From assembly GCF_000026545.1 (NCBI RefSeq), contig NC_011601.1: a DNA stretch of 64,000 nt. One strand, given 5' to 3'. Each line of letters opens with the position of its first letter. The stretch's first letter is position 1. Position numbers: made by a program. Source of the DNA: Escherichia coli O127:H6 str. E2348/69 (GTDB taxonomy: Bacteria; Pseudomonadota; Gammaproteobacteria; Enterobacterales; Enterobacteriaceae). Below are positions 47,801 to 53,800 of the stretch, one piece after another.

Positions 47801-50800
47801 TTATTGTGTCAGTAAACGGCATATTATCAGTGATAGTTCAAACAGTTAGTAGGTAGAAAATGAAGACCAAAAGAAAGAGCTTTGATCAATTCTTATGGCA
47901 TGATATTGATTTTGAAGATGATGCTGCAAAACAGGAAGAATACCTTGAATCTGCATTGCCACTTATTGGCCAGATTGTTATGTATTTCAATGCGCTAGAG
48001 AAAGAATTAGATAAAGTCATTTATGAAGGATTCAGCGATCGGTCAGATCAGTTAGGAATAATAATTGTGCATAACATGAATTATGCAGCAAAAGTCGAGT
48101 TATTTAGACGTCACTCCGAATTATTCCATTTGGGTGTTGGGCAGCATGTTGATATGTTTGAAGGTCTTATAAAGGATCTCAAGGAATGTGGACGGTTACG
48201 AAACATTACTGTACATGCTGACTGGGATAGCACTGATGTCGAAGGATATACATATTTAGGCATCAAAATAACTAACAATGGAATATCTCAGGAATATATC
48301 CAGTTTGACCTGGGGTCGTTGGAAAGTATCCTTCAATTGATTTTCAGTACGAGATATAAGTTGAGTGATTATTCAGACTTAAGGGGAGATATACTGGCTT
48401 CACATTAGTGCCATTTTTTTACTAAATAGCTAACAAATACTATCGGTAAAAGACAACATCGCAATGGTAAAGCTGCCGTGAAGAAGACATTGATTGATTG
48501 GATCATAGAGACTGATAACTGGACAGGAATCGCAGCGTGGGCGGGTTTCGGTTTGTCAGTATTTCAGTTAGTAAAATCAAGAACATCGCTAAGACTTTAC
48601 CTCGGGTGTGATCAGCACGAGGACAGAATATACGTTTCGAACATAAGCGCACATGATGTAACGTTGAGTGTAGCCGGTGTCGTAACAGCCAGTGGACGCC
48701 TTAGAATGCTTTCCGACGAGTATTCGGATGAGAACATGATCACACCGATGTTACCAAGAAGGTTGAAAGCACGAGACGAAATGGTCTTGAACGTGCCCTT
48801 CATAAATAAGGCTCATCACAACAAAGTGCATCATCGTGGCGGGGTGTATATCAAAACATCTGACGGCAAGATGTTCAGTGATGTTTGTTGGATTAGACGC
48901 CAATGGTGGTGGTTACTGTCTGTAATACTGCGAGACACAAAGCGATAGGACAAGCGAGTCGCAGCTCATATGAGTGCCAACTGACATACGGCTCAGTTGG
49001 AATACTAGGATCGCGACTACGTGTTGTCTGCGAAAAACTGGGACTCAATAGATGGGTGTAGATTTAATTGATACGATCCTGTACGCGAATATTTCTCAGC
49101 ATAAATATCATCCCAGCGTCGGATTATGGTATTCAGAATGTGTGTGATGGTCTCTATCTTTATTCAGACCTTTTCTTCTTATCTTCCCATTCTTTTAAAG
49201 TGCTCTGATATCTTTCTTCATTTATTCTTTTTTCCTCGGTTCTGTCGCTTGAGTTGTAATTATCTGTTTTAATTTTCTTGGCTCCTTGGGATATCGGCCT
49301 CCAGTCCTCTCTAATTTTTTTCACTTGCTCGGCTATTTGTGTCATTGGACTCCTTGCTCCTAAATAGCTAACCCCCTCGAAAGAAGCCATATCATAAGAA
49401 TATTCATTGAGTTCTCTTTCTGTAGATCCGGGCTGTTTTGACCAACTGACACTAATAGAATAAATTTGATCCTTAATTTGCTCATACTTGCAGAGATTGC
49501 TGTTGAGAGAGTGTCCGTTTTTTAATACGCTGACCTTGCTAAATGGTACGCCTCTATTTTTTCTATGTTCTGCATTAACGAGAGGGGGATCAAATTCGAC
49601 CGCTATATCATAGGCTGGTGCATTTCCAGTATTAGCGATATTAATGTCAAAATAAAAAGCAGCCCAAGAGTTTGGTTCAAGAGTCACAACAACATGTGGT
49701 TGAACTGATGCGTCAACCATCCTTTTCGTTTCGTTTGCTAATAGCCTTGTTACTCTCCACAAGAAAAACGTAGCAACTGCTGTTAGCAGTGCTGCAAAAG
49801 CAGAGATCATTGTGCTTATAGTATCTATATGCTGTGTGATGAATTCGATCATTCTTCTCCCTCGAAATATAGTGCTTATTGTTATCAAAGGTAAGATAGC
49901 TCCCGGCTTGAAAAATTGCACGCTTATGGTTGCCCCTCCCTCGACGGTTAAGGCTTCAACTTCCCCCGTGCGCCTCTCCCAGCCGAAGGCTGGGCGGGCT
50001 GTATATCGATTTGCCTTCCTCTGTGGCGTTTATGACCCTGTTTCGCGTTCTTACCGTGAGGCTGTGGGTTAGGGTTACTCTTCTCTTTAAACGCTAAATC
50101 ACTCCTGAATCTCCACTGTTAAAGCACTTTGCGTTGATGCTTGGCGCTTCTCTTGGCTGTCGTTATTGTTTTGGCTTTGGTGTCATCAATCGTTCGATTC
50201 TTGCTACCTGTCTGAGTGATTACTATCTGGTATCATCAATTTAGGGTTTGACTAAATGCCACCACCAATGCAATGATGCTACCGTTTTGTGATACCAGAC
50301 GGGTGAGGTGAACCATGAGGACTTTTATCTACTGCCGCGTTTCAACACGCGAGCAGGATACGCAGAATCAGGTGCTGGCTATTGAGCGTGCCGGGTATAA
50401 GGTGCCGGAGAGCAGGGTAATCAGCGAGGACATTTCCGGCAGCGTTCAGGCTATGCAGCGCCCTAAGTTCCGGGCGATGGTTGAGCACAAGCTGGAAGCG
50501 GGAGATCAGCTTGTCGTGCTGAAACTGGACAGGCTGGGGCGTGACAACATCGATGTGCAGCAGACCATCGACATGCTGTTAGAACGCGGCGTGAAGGTGG
50601 TGTCTCTTGACCTGCCAGCGCGTGATCTGACTTCATCTGAGGGCAAGCTAATCCGCCAGATGTTTGGAGCCTTTGCTGAGTTCGAGCGAAACCGTATCCG
50701 TGAGAGGACGCTGGACGGGCTGGAGAAGGCGAAAGCCAATGGCGTTAAGCTGGGACGCAAGGAAGCCACCGACACCACTCAAAAGGTGCAGGAGCTGCGG

Positions 50801-53800
50801 AGTGAGGGGCTGTCTCAATCGAAGGTAGCGAAGCATCTCGGCGTTAGCGTGAGCACCGTTAAACGTCACTGGAACAAGGGTTAGGGGTGATGACCTACAA
50901 CCAAATGAGGTGCCAGCACTGGCCGTTACTGGGCTGTGGGAGATGGATGACCTACAGCTTTTGTATTTATTTCAGAGTGTTATGTTATGCGAAATCTCGT
51001 AATGCTATGATTTATAGTGTATTTTCGTATTACTTGCGGCTCTTGATGCGAAGAGATGGCGGGGCTTTAGCCGTGCCAGACGATGAGCATCAAGATCAGA
51101 TTGTGAATGTGATTCATCACTGAACAATTCGAGGGATGGGGCAGGGGAAGGGATCAAAGGCTGCGTTGTCCAATCACTAAGCTAGATTTGAAGCTGGTCA
51201 ACACGTTAGTAGTATCTTTAAAGTCGCATTTTAAATACATGTACAAAAAAGGGTTCTTCCCCTACATCCCCTTCTCCTAATCAGTGTTATCGCTTCACGC
51301 TCACCACTGGCTGCGCTTCTCGCTGTGCTCCAGCCCACTCGATCGCCTTTGGCTCATTCCCGGTCTTCGCCTGCTGTGATGCTCGGCCACTCTACGCAAC
51401 CGTGCTTGCCGTGGCATGCAACGCGGCGGGGATGTGTAGTGGAACGGTACTTTTTATCTATATTATTAATTTAATCAATCACATACTGTTATCGGTAGGT
51501 ATTCTTCAAAACATCTTCATTCATTTCTGTATCGTTCAATCATCTTTCTTGTTCGTTTCCTTTCAGGTCTTAGCCGTTGGTCATTGGTCTTACTGCCCGC
51601 TGTGCTACTGCCAGCTATGGCACGCCGTCACGGTCTACTGTCTGTCACCTGTCCTACTGCGTTCACTGTCTGCCGTCTGTCATCCTGTCGGATTCCATCC
51701 GTTGACGTTCCGCGCTCGCTTGTTTCGGCTGCGCCGCGCTCGCTCTGCGTATCTAGCGATACTATATCACTATAGACACTTTCATAATTATATAATGATT
51801 ACAGTAACTTATGTTTTCTGTTTTAAAAGCTACTAATAAGGAGATATAGAGCATTACTTACCCGCTTTTGACCGACAAAAATCGCGTTGTTAAGTATTGC
51901 CAGCCCAGGCTCAATAAGGCTTAGCGAGGTGGTGGCTAAAAAATGAGCTAATGAAGGTATCTACTAAGGAGAAAGAATAACTCCCGAAGCGCGACAAACT
52001 CTCCGATTTTGAAAGTGACTATTAAGGCAGATAAAGACACTGACACTGTTGCTGACATGAAAACTTCTAAAAGGGCAGAGAGTCTGCCGAACCCGTACCG
52101 CTGACCCAACCTGAGCTAATACCTACCCCTATTTTCTGGAGATTTCACCATGCCAACAAACCTACGCCGCCTGCTTGCGCAGGCTGCCGACGCTGACCCG
52201 CTCAATACTGCGGACGCAGATGTACAGCAAATGATCGCTGACGGGATTGTTATTCGACGTTCCAAGATATGCCCTGTAAAGCGTAAACCCGTTAAGGCGG
52301 CATACAACACAAAGACCGAAGAGTTTTATTACAATGCAGATGGCTCCGCGATGACCTTGCGGGAGTGGCGAACGCTGCACGGTGTTCAACCGAAGAAACA
52401 AAAACAGCGCTCTGACACTGGGTTGCGGCAAGTCATCCAGCCCGGCGACGCGATTCACTGCCGACGCGCTGAGATTGAGCAATGGCTTAATAAGAAGCCC
52501 GCTCGTTATGTTGACCCGCTGCCGCCAGATTTTCCCGGTGTTCGCGTAGACGATGCCGCATTGAAACCGCGCGAGCACGCCGTGCCGGAAGCGACAACCG
52601 GACAGAATGCTTTTCTCAAAGCCTGCCGCGAGTTCCTGATTTGCGATGAGAAGACCATGCGCCGTATCAGTCGGGGCATGAACCAAATGGAAGCTATGCG
52701 CAACGCAGATTTCAAACGCTACGGAGACTCAGGGGAGTTTCGTCAATTGTGGTGTGGAGAGTCGAAGCCTACCGAAGATAGATTTAATAGTTCTAATCAT
52801 CATTGTGACCCGAACGGCTTGGCTGCTTCGCCGTCTGTGCCGCCACTGAATACTGCACCGTATGAGTTCCGCCCGCTGGCTCGCTGTGACCGAAACGCAC
52901 GCGTTAGCCTGCTGCCACCTGATGGGCTGGAGTGGAGGCCGGGGCAGTTGTCTGTTGCTGATGCGATCTTTTCCCGTGGCAGTGATGTGCTTGCCGTACT
53001 GCCGACCGGGTATGGCAAAAGCGCCGCCTTCACTTATCCATTGATTTATGAGTCCCGCGCTGGCATTGGCCTGTCTGTAATCGTGGTTCCTACTAATACC
53101 CTTAAGCGTCAGATTCTCCGCCAGTTGCGGGAGGCTGGCATTCACGCTGTGGCCTTTGGCGATAAGCTACCGAGGCACCGCAACGCACAACAACTGGCGG
53201 GACTAGCAGCCGGGGCGTTCCGGGTTGCTGTTGTTTCGCCTGAACATCTGGTTCCGTCGAGTCAGGTTCTCGCGGCGCTGATGGCTTATGGCGTTGATCG
53301 TTTTATTATCGATGAGGCACACACGGTCAAAGACTGGGATTTCCGCCCAGCTTACGACGCAATGCAGCACACACTACAGAATGCTTTTCCCTCGGCTCAG
53401 CGCTGCGTGTTTACGGCTACTCTACTACGAGAAAATGAGCGCGGTTTAATGGAGGCGCTGGGATGCCGTGGCGATTACGTTACATTCCGTGCTGATGTTG
53501 CTCGCGAGAATATCCAGTTGATTCCGGTCAGGCAGTGCCGCCAGCGATACCGCGCGGCTGTTGGTCTGGTCGAGGCTCTGCCAGAGGAAGAGAAGACGCT
53601 CATTCTAGTCAATGACCTTAAGACGTTGCGGGCGTACCTGAAACTCTTCGGCGACCGGGCGCGCCCATATCACTCGAAGACGATGCACCTGAGCAACGAG
53701 GAACGCCACGCAAACGCTGAGTGGTTTGCCTCTGCGCCGGGCGCGATTCTGATTGCTACTAAAGCCTTCGGGCTGGGTGCTGATGTTCCTGATATCCGTA

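What the first reader, a model, noticed from the sequence alone, without database searches (positions are those of the whole stretch)
49922..50955. Small serine recombinase with flanking short repeats, possible invertible or resolvable switch
The 189-aa protein has the resolvase/invertase catalytic serine motif (YCRVST) and a C-terminal HTH; its size fits Hin/Gin/Pin invertases or Tn3-type resolvases. Immediately downstream are two direct copies of gatgacctaca about 55 bp apart (50889-50899 and 50946-50956), and upstream is a perfect 7-bp stem cccagcc/ggctggg (49957-49973). If it is an invertase, the neighbouring promoter regions could be phase-variable, switching the AT-rich cargo or the helicase operon.
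Basis: partly seen in the sequence, partly recalled or inferred. Interest (0 to 1): 0.55.

Follow-up and report, generated by a model that had tools for sequence, protein, structure and literature searches.

The report
Island resolvase with its res site
The gene is a resolvase-type DNA recombinase whose three-part recognition site lies just upstream of it, inside a 15-kb mobile island at the leuX tRNA gene of E. coli E2348/69. It is an ordinary "tidy-up" enzyme for repeated copies of the island, not an on/off inversion switch.

Summary
The window is EPEC E2348/69. The ORF is real (50315-50884, 189 aa, Resolvase + HTH_7). It sits in a 15,061-bp integrative, satellite-like island bounded by a 31-bp leuX repeat.

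The stem is 21 nt off, at 49978-49994. Neither is the recombination site.

The real site lies at 50180-50297:
- a 28-bp inverted-repeat crossover site
- a 22-bp spacer
- a 33-bp second site holding the -35
- two direct half-sites holding the -10

This six-half-site layout recurs at -130 to -144 upstream of 13 of 14 homologues from seven genera and small plasmids. It matches Tn3/gamma-delta and SGI1 res sites. The four Tn3 regulatory-interface residues are conserved here and absent in Gin.

There is one site per genome and no inverted partner. The 148 related genomes were not inspected for rearrangement beyond hit counts.

A natural hybrid site in 87 E. coli genomes joins the left 13 nt of this site to the right 15 nt of another island's site. 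This marks a past crossover at the site centre.

Verdict: a resolvase/res module, autoregulated, probably resolving tandem or multimeric island copies. It is a new member of a known kind, and the inversion reading is not supported.

The parts
47258..47342 (+). tRNA-Leu (CAA), leuX. Its 3' 31 nt (47312-47342) form attL of the island.
   Evidence: ARAGORN and Rfam tRNA. The direct repeat with 62373-62403 is family D1.
47343..47806 (.). Conserved 464-bp arm that follows leuX.
   Evidence: It is 95-98% identical in hundreds of E. coli genomes and in Kluyvera and Trabulsiella, and 77% identical in Pantoea.
47807..49901 (.). Variable cargo region 1, with lower GC (36-47%). It holds ORFs 47860-48408 (+), 48478-48948 (+) and 49160-49921 (-).
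   Evidence: The region is replaced by other genes in relatives. The 253-aa ORF matches phrog_11802 and has an 84% DNA homologue in a P2-like prophage, between a tail fibre assembly gene and the tail sheath gene.
49902..50159 (.). Conserved spacer module between the cargo and the recombinase cassette.
   Evidence: The module is shared with LD26-1, Kluyvera and Trabulsiella.
50180..50207 (+). res site I, the crossover site: GTGTCA-N16-TGCTAC, 28 bp, with its centre at 50193/50194.
   Evidence: This is the only match with no mismatches in the window. The same 28-bp pattern lies at -130 to -144 in 13 of 14 homologous loci. A natural hybrid site breaks at its centre.
50230..50262 (+). res site II (accessory): GTATCA-N21-TGCCAC, 33 bp, 22 bp after site I. 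It contains the -35 TTGACT (50248-50253).
   Evidence: The spacing is conserved across homologues.
50278..50297 (+). res site III region. It has two direct half-sites, TGCTAC (50278-50283) and TGATAC (50290-50295). The -10 AATGAT (50272-50277) ends immediately upstream of the first.
   Evidence: Paired direct half-sites 12-15 bp apart are conserved in the homologues.
50315..50884 (+). Small serine recombinase (resolvase type), 189 aa. The catalytic residue is Ser10 and the C-terminus is an HTH.
   Evidence: Pfam. PDB best match is gamma-delta resolvase at 7e-23. Catalytic and regulatory-interface residues are conserved.
50889..50956 (+). The second overlaps a terminator-like hairpin (50931-50960) followed by a T-rich run.
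50885..52149 (.). Conserved 1.27-kb gene-free region with short repeats and AT-rich blocks. It is a candidate origin or regulatory region of the island.
   Evidence: It is 89-94% identical in relatives. Repeats are listed. There is no Rfam match.
52150..53994 (+). RecQ-like DEAD/DEAH helicase.
   Evidence: NCBIfam recQ family, 7e-45. Pfam DEAD and Helicase_C. PADLOC DpdF-like model, 1.9e-277.
57350..58345 (+). Major-head-protein homologue.
   Evidence: phrog_267 at 3.3e-64. Annotated as capsid protein in a relative.
58362..58871 (+). HNH endonuclease.
   Evidence: phrog_99 at 3e-53.
60038..60940 (-). Variable cargo region 2: an AbiTii-family abortive-infection protein.
   Evidence: PADLOC AbiTii at 2.1e-48. 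The region varies among relatives.
61028..62239 (-). Tyrosine integrase of the island.
   Evidence: phrog_1 at 2.9e-35. Annotated as site-specific integrase.
62373..62403 (+). attR, a repeat of the leuX 3' end.
   Evidence: family D1.

Best explanation
The gene encodes a Tn3/gamma-delta-like resolvase that works on a three-part res site immediately upstream of it (50180-50297).

Proposed mechanism (inferred):
- Dimers bind six half-sites of the type GTRTCA / TGAYAC.
- Site I (28 bp) is where the DNA is cut and exchanged.
- Sites II and III are architectural.
- Because sites II and III cover the -35 and -10 of the gene's own promoter, they probably also shut off its transcription.

Context (shown): the module belongs to a 15-kb integrase-bearing, satellite-like island at leuX.

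Consequences:
- With one island copy there is only one res site, so nothing recombines and nothing can invert.
- When two copies lie in direct repeat, the enzyme deletes what lies between them and restores a single unit. Such copies could be multimers of an excised replicating island, tandem integrations, or a neighbouring island with a compatible site.
- As a by-product, this has fused the cargo end of one island to the core of another.

Shown: protein family, site architecture and its conservation, single copy, and a historical crossover at the site centre.
Inferred: binding, autoregulation, and the biological role in multimer or tandem resolution.
For: Protein family:
- Resolvase and HTH_7 domains.
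- The best solved relatives are gamma-delta and Tn3 resolvases, at 7e-23 and 9e-22.
- Catalytic R8, S10, D67, R68 and R71 are invariant in 117 of 117 family members.
- Regulatory-interface residues R2, R32, K54 and E56 are named as key in PMC9943657. They are present here as R2, R34, K59 and E61. In the family they are present in 114, 117, 90 (K; Q in 25) and 117 of 117 members. In Gin the aligned positions are gap, Q, R and Q (Gin sequence verified).

Site architecture:
[quoted passage not shown] Only 2 other matches occur in 480 kb of scanned strand.
- Half-site offsets of 0, +22, +50, +78, +94 to +97 and +109 recur across genera.
- Site I is 28 bp, the spacer is 22 bp, and the site I to site II centres are 52.5 bp apart. 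This equals the layout reported for SGI1 and Tn3 res: boxI 28 bp, 22-bp spacer, about 5 helical turns.
- The promoter-like -35 and -10 lie inside sites II and III.

Copy number:
- One site per genome, in 14 of 5426 complete E. coli genomes.

Hybrid site:
- In CUVET21-37 the site reads GTGTCATCAATCG|ACCGTTTTCTGGCAC.
- The left flank is 98.4% identical to a related island (USMARC) over 11.3 kb, ending at position 13 of the site.
- The right side is 99.2% identical to a different island whose native site is GCGCCAACAAACGACCGTTTTCTGGCAC.
- This junction occurs in 87 genomes.

Supporting context:
- Tandem islands at leuX exist.
- At the same position, about 130 related islands carry a Sin-like resolvase instead.
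- 60%-identical homologues with the same site layout sit on 4-9 kb plasmids.
- SGI1's resolvase was shown experimentally to remove island multimers.
Against: - No experiment or read data were available, so DNA binding, catalysis and autoregulation are unproven for this protein.
- Three of the six half-sites in E2348/69 differ by one base from the family consensus (TGCTAC twice, TGCCAC once).
- The third sub-site is a direct repeat rather than the 25-bp inverted site of Tn3, so the synaptic complex may differ.
- It is not shown that this island excises or replicates. Its helper phage is unknown, and concatemers are normally useful for phage packaging, which makes a need for multimer resolution less obvious.
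- Some mosaic breakpoints (for example 50159/50160 against the LD26-1 allele) lie outside site I and need another explanation, such as homologous exchange in conserved flanks.
- By sequence alone the protein is also 41% identical to prophage PinR-type proteins that are annotated as invertases.
Confidence: 0.7

Rival explanations
1. It is a DNA invertase of the Hin/Gin/Pin kind. It flips a nearby segment and so switches the cargo genes or the helicase operon on and off.
For: The size and domain layout fit. The PHROG family name is "DNA invertase". Some sources name relatives "Pin-like". The protein is 41% identical to PinR-type prophage proteins. A 17-nt inverted repeat flanks 217 bp upstream of the helicase gene (pair I1).
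Against: - The window holds one perfect crossover-type site. The two other one-mismatch matches (35265 and 63943) lie outside the island and are within chance expectation of 2.95.
- No inverted partner was found.
- The 17-nt repeat does not contain the family half-site.
- The region aligns as a single collinear match in three related loci, L002, L003 and L007, and in three assemblies of this strain.
- Accessory sub-sites and regulatory-interface residues are resolvase traits that Gin lacks.
Confidence: 0.03
2. The protein now acts mainly as a DNA-binding repressor of its own promoter and perhaps of neighbouring island genes. Recombination would be vestigial.
For: Half-sites overlap the -35 and -10. 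Only one site exists per genome, so recombination has no substrate most of the time.
Against: All catalytic residues are invariant across 117 relatives. The full crossover site with its precise 28-bp geometry is conserved. The hybrid site shows that recombination has occurred at this kind of site.
Confidence: 0.08
3. The selected role of the module is to swap the adjacent defence-cargo region between islands (a "shuffling" resolvase). Resolving multimers would be secondary.
For: - In all contexts examined the module sits near an integrase or variable, often defence-type, cargo.
- In 6 of 14 genomes the left-flank homology ends exactly at the outer edge of site I, at 50178.
- The hybrid site fused cargo from one island to the core of another.
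Against: - Resolvase complexes normally disfavour reactions between separate molecules.
- The hybrid left an island with only a truncated integrase, which looks like decay rather than adaptation.
- Other breakpoints lie outside the site.
- The same module is on small plasmids that lack such cargo.
Confidence: 0.12
4. It is a leftover resolvase from a Tn3-family transposon that once inserted here.
For: The closest solved relatives are transposon resolvases.
Against: No transposase was annotated in the island, and terminal inverted repeats were not specifically searched for. The cassette is a fixed feature at the same position in the island family across E. coli, Kluyvera, Trabulsiella and Pantoea.
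Confidence: 0.02

Closest known systems
SGI1 resolution system (Res / resG plus its res site) of Salmonella Genomic Island 1
   Same: Both are small serine resolvase genes inside an integrative island, with a three-part res site directly upstream. Both have boxI of 28 bp, a 22-bp spacer and about 5 helical turns between boxes I and II. In SGI1 the system was shown to remove island multimers (PMC12217951).
   Different: The host element differs. SGI1 is a plasmid-mobilised island at trmE, whereas this is a capsid-gene-bearing, satellite-like island at leuX. Here site II is 33 bp and the third sub-site is a direct repeat. Sequence relatedness to SGI1 Res was not measured. No experiment exists for this system.
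Tn3 / gamma-delta resolvase and res
   Same: They share the fold and catalytic residues. The four regulatory-interface residues are conserved. Both have a 28-bp site I and a site roughly 114-118 bp long next to the gene.
   Different: The best alignment gives E = 7e-23, with the proteins alignable end to end. There is no transposase and there are no transposon ends. The half-site sequence differs (GTRTCA). Site III is arranged as direct rather than inverted half-sites.
Sin and beta resolvases of Gram-positive plasmids
   Same: They use an accessory site made of direct-repeat half-sites and act in plasmid multimer resolution.
   Different: Sin has only two protein sites plus an HU/IHF site. Here there are six half-sites. 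The Sin-like protein is the alternative (beta) allele found in other copies of this island, not the one in this window.
Hin/Gin/Cin/Pin DNA invertases
   Same: Same superfamily, size and domain order. PHROG and some source names call the family "invertase".
   Different: Invertases use two simple inverted crossover sites and an enhancer. Here there is one site with accessory sub-sites, no inverted partner, and resolvase-type interface residues that are absent in Gin.
"Shuffling function of resolvases" (Kholodii 2001; recalled from memory, its title found in reference lists)
   Same: It proposes that recombination at res sites between different elements creates hybrid sites and mosaic elements, as seen in the alpha/gamma hybrid site here.
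   Different: That idea was described for plasmids and transposons of Acinetobacter. Here it is seen between chromosomal islands at a tRNA hotspot. I did not read the paper.

Membership tests
Small serine recombinases (resolvase/invertase family) | N-terminal catalytic domain with the serine nucleophile and conserved Arg/Asp residues | tested here: met
   PF00239 at 1.2e-36. S10, R8, D67, R68 and R71 are aligned and invariant.
Small serine recombinases (resolvase/invertase family) | Short C-terminal helix-turn-helix DNA-binding domain | tested here: met
   HTH_7 at residues 147-188, 1e-06.
Tn3-like resolution systems (resolvase plus multipartite res) | Crossover site I, an inverted repeat of about 28 bp, next to the gene | tested here: met
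   Located at 50180-50207. The pattern is conserved at -130 to -144 in 13 of 14 loci.
Tn3-like resolution systems (resolvase plus multipartite res) | Accessory sites II and III at fixed helical spacing | tested here: inconclusive
   Site II is met: 22-bp spacer, 33-34 bp long, centres 52.5 bp apart. The third sub-site is a pair of direct half-sites, not a 25-bp inverted site.
Tn3-like resolution systems (resolvase plus multipartite res) | Regulatory (2-3') interface residues R2, R32, K54 and E56 | tested here: met
   Present as R2, R34, K59 and E61. Conserved in 114, 117, 90 and 117 of 117 relatives respectively. Gin has none of them.
Tn3-like resolution systems (resolvase plus multipartite res) | Catalyses deletion between directly repeated res sites | not testable with these tools
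   Only indirect evidence is available: a hybrid site whose junction falls at positions 12-14 of the 28-bp site, in 87 genomes.
Tn3-family transposons | tnpA transposase and terminal inverted repeats around the resolvase | tested here: not met
   No transposase appears among the island's annotated genes or ORFs. Terminal inverted repeats were not searched for.
DNA invertases (Hin/Gin/Cin/Pin) | Two crossover sites in inverted orientation bounding an invertible segment | tested here: not met
   There is one perfect site in 64 kb. No suitable inverted repeat was found.
DNA invertases (Hin/Gin/Cin/Pin) | Both orientations of the segment seen among genomes or reads | tested here: not met
   Three E2348/69 assemblies match 49900-52150 at 100% in one piece, and three related loci align collinearly across the recombinase-helicase region. 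Read data were not available.
DNA invertases (Hin/Gin/Cin/Pin) | Fis-dependent enhancer inside the gene | not tested
   No reliable sequence test was available.
Island-borne resolution systems (SGI1 type) | The host island has an excised, replicating or tandem multimeric state on which the resolvase acts | not testable with these tools
   The island has an integrase, perfect 31-bp att repeats and a helicase. Tandem islands at leuX exist. Excision and replication were not observed.
Known phage satellite families (P4-like, PICI, cf-PICI), for the host island | Hallmark genes: sid/psu/delta/alpha primase for P4-like, or alpA plus pri-rep for PICI, or a full capsid-portal-terminase set for cf-PICI | tested here: not met
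   Only integrase, helicase, one head-protein homologue, HNH and endonuclease VII were recognised.

The most novel reading that the evidence does not exclude
Resolvase/res cassettes of this family are a standard part of small defence-carrying islands and phage satellites. They are placed at the border between the conserved core and a variable cargo region. Recombination at site I between co-resident or tandem islands would then be a regular route by which defence cargo is re-assorted between otherwise unrelated islands.
Probability: 0.15. Interest if true: 0.55.

Novelty: new member of a known kind. Interest (0 to 1): 0.3.

Why it matters
- It removes a false lead. There is no phase-variable switch controlling the cargo or helicase genes of this EPEC island.
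- It gives exact coordinates and a testable half-site code (GTRTCA/TGAYAC, six positions) for an uncharacterised resolvase family. The family is spread across gammaproteobacterial islands and small plasmids.
- The hybrid site shows that resolvase-type crossovers have welded parts of different leuX islands together in 87 sequenced E. coli genomes. This helps explain the mosaic structure of defence islands at tRNA hotspots.
- The 15-kb host island does not fit the known satellite families and may deserve study in its own right. It carries an integrase, a RecQ-like helicase, a head-protein homologue, HNH and two cargo slots.

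Tried and rejected
- Rfam scan of 47000-62700: only the tRNA was found.
- RNA folding gave z-scores of only -1.0 to -1.6, so no structured RNA is claimed.
- Inverted-repeat searches of the island and of 49900-52200 found no pair carrying the family half-site.
- Tandem Repeats Finder found nothing in the 1.27-kb intergenic region.
- The genome-contig scan returned only 8 loci, so contexts were gathered through exact-protein look-ups instead.
- Pfam on three core proteins gave nothing that names the island type.
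No matching left halves exist, and the 9-mer motif is not enriched in the window. I rejected this as unproven coincidence.
- The 68%-identical Citrobacter plasmid homologue lies next to a flagellin gene and an fljA-like repressor, which looked like a Hin-type switch. That locus also has only one perfect site I; its single one-mismatch match lies inside the flagellin gene.
- Literature searches found no description of this leuX island.

Full report
**Source and setting**

The window matches E. coli O127:H6 strain E2348/69 at 100% identity. The annotated record calls the ORF a "recombinase family protein".

A single tRNA gene, leuX (tRNA-Leu CAA), lies at 47258-47342. Its last 31 nt recur at 62373-62403 (family D1). 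These repeats bound a 15,061-bp insertion.

From left to right the insertion holds:
- a 464-bp conserved arm;
- a low-GC variable region with three unannotated ORFs;
- a 258-bp conserved spacer;
- the recombinase;
- a 1.27-kb gene-free region;
- a RecQ-like helicase;
- a row of small unknown genes;
- a major-head-protein homologue (phrog_267, 3.3e-64);
- an HNH endonuclease;
- an endonuclease VII-like gene;
- an AbiTii abortive-infection gene;
- a tyrosine integrase next to the right repeat.

The element therefore looks like an integrative, phage-satellite-like island with two cargo slots. It lacks the hallmark genes of P4-like elements, PICIs or cf-PICIs, and Pfam added nothing that names it.

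**Checking the observation**

The ORF 50315-50884 encodes 189 aa beginning MRTFIYCRVST. It matches Resolvase (1.2e-36) and HTH_7.

The two GATGACCTACA copies are at the stated coordinates and are the only two in the window.

Local exact 11-mer repeats are about eight times commoner in this window than in Markov resamples, 8 against about 1.1. The repeat is therefore non-random but not exceptional.

In relatives the first copy is conserved in 3 of 4 and the second carries an A-to-G change in 3 of 4. The second copy supplies the descending arm of a hairpin (50931-50960) followed by a T-rich run. This is most simply the terminator of the recombinase gene.

**The real recombination site**

Directly upstream of the gene lie the motifs TGGTGTCA (50178), TGGTATCA (50228) and, inverted, TGATACCA (50290). 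That is 3 of only 11 occurrences in 64 kb, against about 3 expected for the whole window.

Upstream regions of homologues were compared across Citrobacter, Providencia, Pantoea, Halomonas, Vibrio, Psychromonas, Marinobacterium, Plesiomonas and Agarivorans. These include 4-9 kb plasmids. All show one shared layout:
- a 28-bp inverted repeat, GTRTCA-N16-TGAYAC;
- a 21-22 bp gap;
- a 33-34 bp inverted repeat, GTRTCA-N21/22-TGAYAC;
- two further TGAYAC half-sites in direct orientation, 12-15 bp apart.

With at most one mismatch, the 28-bp pattern occurs 130-144 bp before the start codon in 13 of 14 loci. Only two other matches occur in 480 kb of scanned strand. Exact half-sites fall at offsets 0, +22, +50, +78, +94 to +97 and +109 in different genera.

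In E2348/69 the sites are as follows:
- site I: 50180-50207;
- site II: 50230-50262;
- site III: half-sites at 50278 and 50290.

Three half-sites differ from the consensus by one base each. The only promoter-like match in the region has its -35 (50248) inside site II and its -10 (ending 50277) at the first site III half-site. Self-repression is the natural inference.

**Comparison with known res sites**

The Tn3 res site is 114 bp with three dimer-binding sites. Only site I is cut, and sites II and III build the synaptic complex (PMC9943657).

For SGI1, boxI is 28 bp, the spacer is 22 bp, and boxes I and II are about five helical turns apart. For Tn3/gamma-delta, boxII is 34 bp and boxIII is 25 bp (PMC12217951).

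Here site I is 28 bp, the spacer is 22 bp, and the centres are 52.5 bp apart. The third sub-site differs in being a direct repeat, which recalls the accessory site of Sin.

**Protein evidence**

The best solved relatives are gamma-delta (7e-23) and Tn3 (9e-22) resolvases, with Gin at 2e-16.

The key regulatory-interface residues of Tn3 resolvase are R2, R32, K54 and E56. They align with R2, R34, K59 and E61 here. Among 117 relatives they are conserved in 114, 117, 90 (K; Q in a further 25) and 117 members. Gin has a gap, Q, R and Q at those columns (my Gin sequence was verified against PDB).

PinR-type prophage proteins are 41% identical. In that alignment they lack the R32 and E56 equivalents.

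Family names such as "DNA invertase" or "Pin-like" are annotation labels, not tests.

**No partner site and no inversion found**

Only one perfect site I exists in the window. Two one-mismatch matches lie far outside the island and are within chance expectation of 2.95. Inverted-repeat searches found no pair carrying the half-site.

This recombinase allele with its site occurs once per genome in 14 of 5426 complete E. coli genomes. The wider region matches in 148 genomes, with a median of one place per genome and a maximum of two. Three independent E2348/69 assemblies are identical and collinear. Relatives align as a single block across the recombinase-helicase intergenic region.

**A natural recombination product**

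Many E. coli strains carry a different island at leuX. It encodes a recombinase (here called gamma) that is 47% identical to this one, and it has its own 28-bp site, GCGCCAACAAACGACCGTTTTCTGGCAC.

In strain CUVET21-37 the site reads GTGTCATCAATCG|ACCGTTTTCTGGCAC.
- To the left, 11.3 kb are 98.4% identical to a relative of the E2348/69 island (USMARC-50748). This identity ends at position 13 of the site.
- To the right, 3.3 kb are 99.2% identical to the gamma island.
- Allele-specific bases place the switch between positions 11 and 14 of the 28-bp site. This is at the central dinucleotide where serine recombinases cut.
- Everything that would have lain between the two sites in a tandem array is missing, including both integrases.

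This junction is present in 87 genomes. Tandem islands at leuX do occur: USMARC-50748 has this island followed by a P4-like satellite. I read the hybrid as the scar of a resolvase-type deletion between directly repeated, heterologous res sites.

Not every mosaic boundary is of this kind. The junction with the LD26-1 allele lies at 50159/50160, outside site I.

**Further support for a resolution role**

- In about 130 related islands the same slot holds a 26%-identical recombinase. Its best solved relative is Sin resolvase. This is a replacement by another resolvase type.
- Homologues at 59-60% identity with the same site layout sit on small plasmids with few other genes. For plasmids, multimer resolution is the usual role, by established knowledge.
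- In SGI1, restoring the res site gave an active Tn3-like system that rapidly removed island multimers.
- Across other genera the cassette sits near an integrase and defence-type cargo such as RexA, type I restriction-modification, HipA and AbiTii.

**Conclusion**

The finding is a resolvase/res module of a mobile island, not a phase-variation switch. The molecular assignment is well supported by comparative sequence evidence. Binding, autoregulation and the role in resolving multimeric or tandem copies are inferred.

It is a new member of a known kind. The most novel reading still open is that such cassettes regularly mediate cargo exchange between defence islands.

Noticed in passing
window 50885-52149: A 1.27-kb stretch with no annotated gene lies between the recombinase and the helicase. 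It is 89-94% conserved in E. coli and Kluyvera relatives. It contains 23-nt repeats (51588, 51637, 51665), CCGCGCTCGCT twice (51710, 51734), AT-rich blocks and a 17-nt inverted repeat (51772-51788 / 52006-52022). It may be the island's origin or control region. No Rfam hit was found and there is no folding signal.
   Followed up: partly
window 49160-49921 (minus strand); L021 6001-6806: The 253-aa cargo ORF (phrog_11802, function unknown) has an 84% DNA homologue in a P2-like prophage, between a tail fibre assembly gene and the tail sheath gene. From memory, that position is known for anti-phage cargo, which makes it a candidate defence gene.
   Followed up: partly
window 52150-53994: The RecQ-like helicase matches one PADLOC "DpdF" model over its full length at 1.9e-277, yet no other dpd gene is nearby. 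That model may have been built from island helicases like this one.
   Followed up: no
window 47343-47806: The 464 bp after leuX are 95-98% identical in hundreds of E. coli genomes with or without this island, and 77% identical in Pantoea. They also appear at the far end of the gamma island in RUT3575 (L026 9289-9778). Whether this is chromosomal DNA, an integrase arm region or a small gene is unclear.
   Followed up: partly
L028 (USMARC-50748), whole locus: A relative of this island sits in tandem with a P4-like satellite (sid, psu, delta-like, primase-helicase) at leuX. Their two integrase genes face each other across the shared attachment site.
   Followed up: partly
L009 7830-8000 (Vibrio sp. 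10N.261.55.A7): A 65%-identical homologue keeps the same six-half-site layout but with a different half-site, ATGRMCTA. Its 57-bp spacing is close to the 56 bp between the right halves of sites I and II. No matching left halves exist, so this remains an unexplained coincidence.
   Followed up: partly
L006 735-3264 (Citrobacter youngae plasmid pCF10-F): A 68%-identical homologue lies divergently next to a flagellin gene and an fljA-like "phase 1 flagellin repressor" on a 33-kb plasmid. This arrangement recalls Salmonella hin-fljBA, but only one perfect site I was found there.
   Followed up: partly
window 50878-50886: The E2348/69 recombinase ends two codons early relative to its 191-aa relatives, with TAG where they have GAG. 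All catalytic and DNA-binding parts are retained.
   Followed up: yes
window 47860-48408 and 48478-48948: Two cargo ORFs of 182 aa and 156 aa have no match in NCBIfam, PHROGs or PADLOC. The second is not annotated in RefSeq.
   Followed up: no
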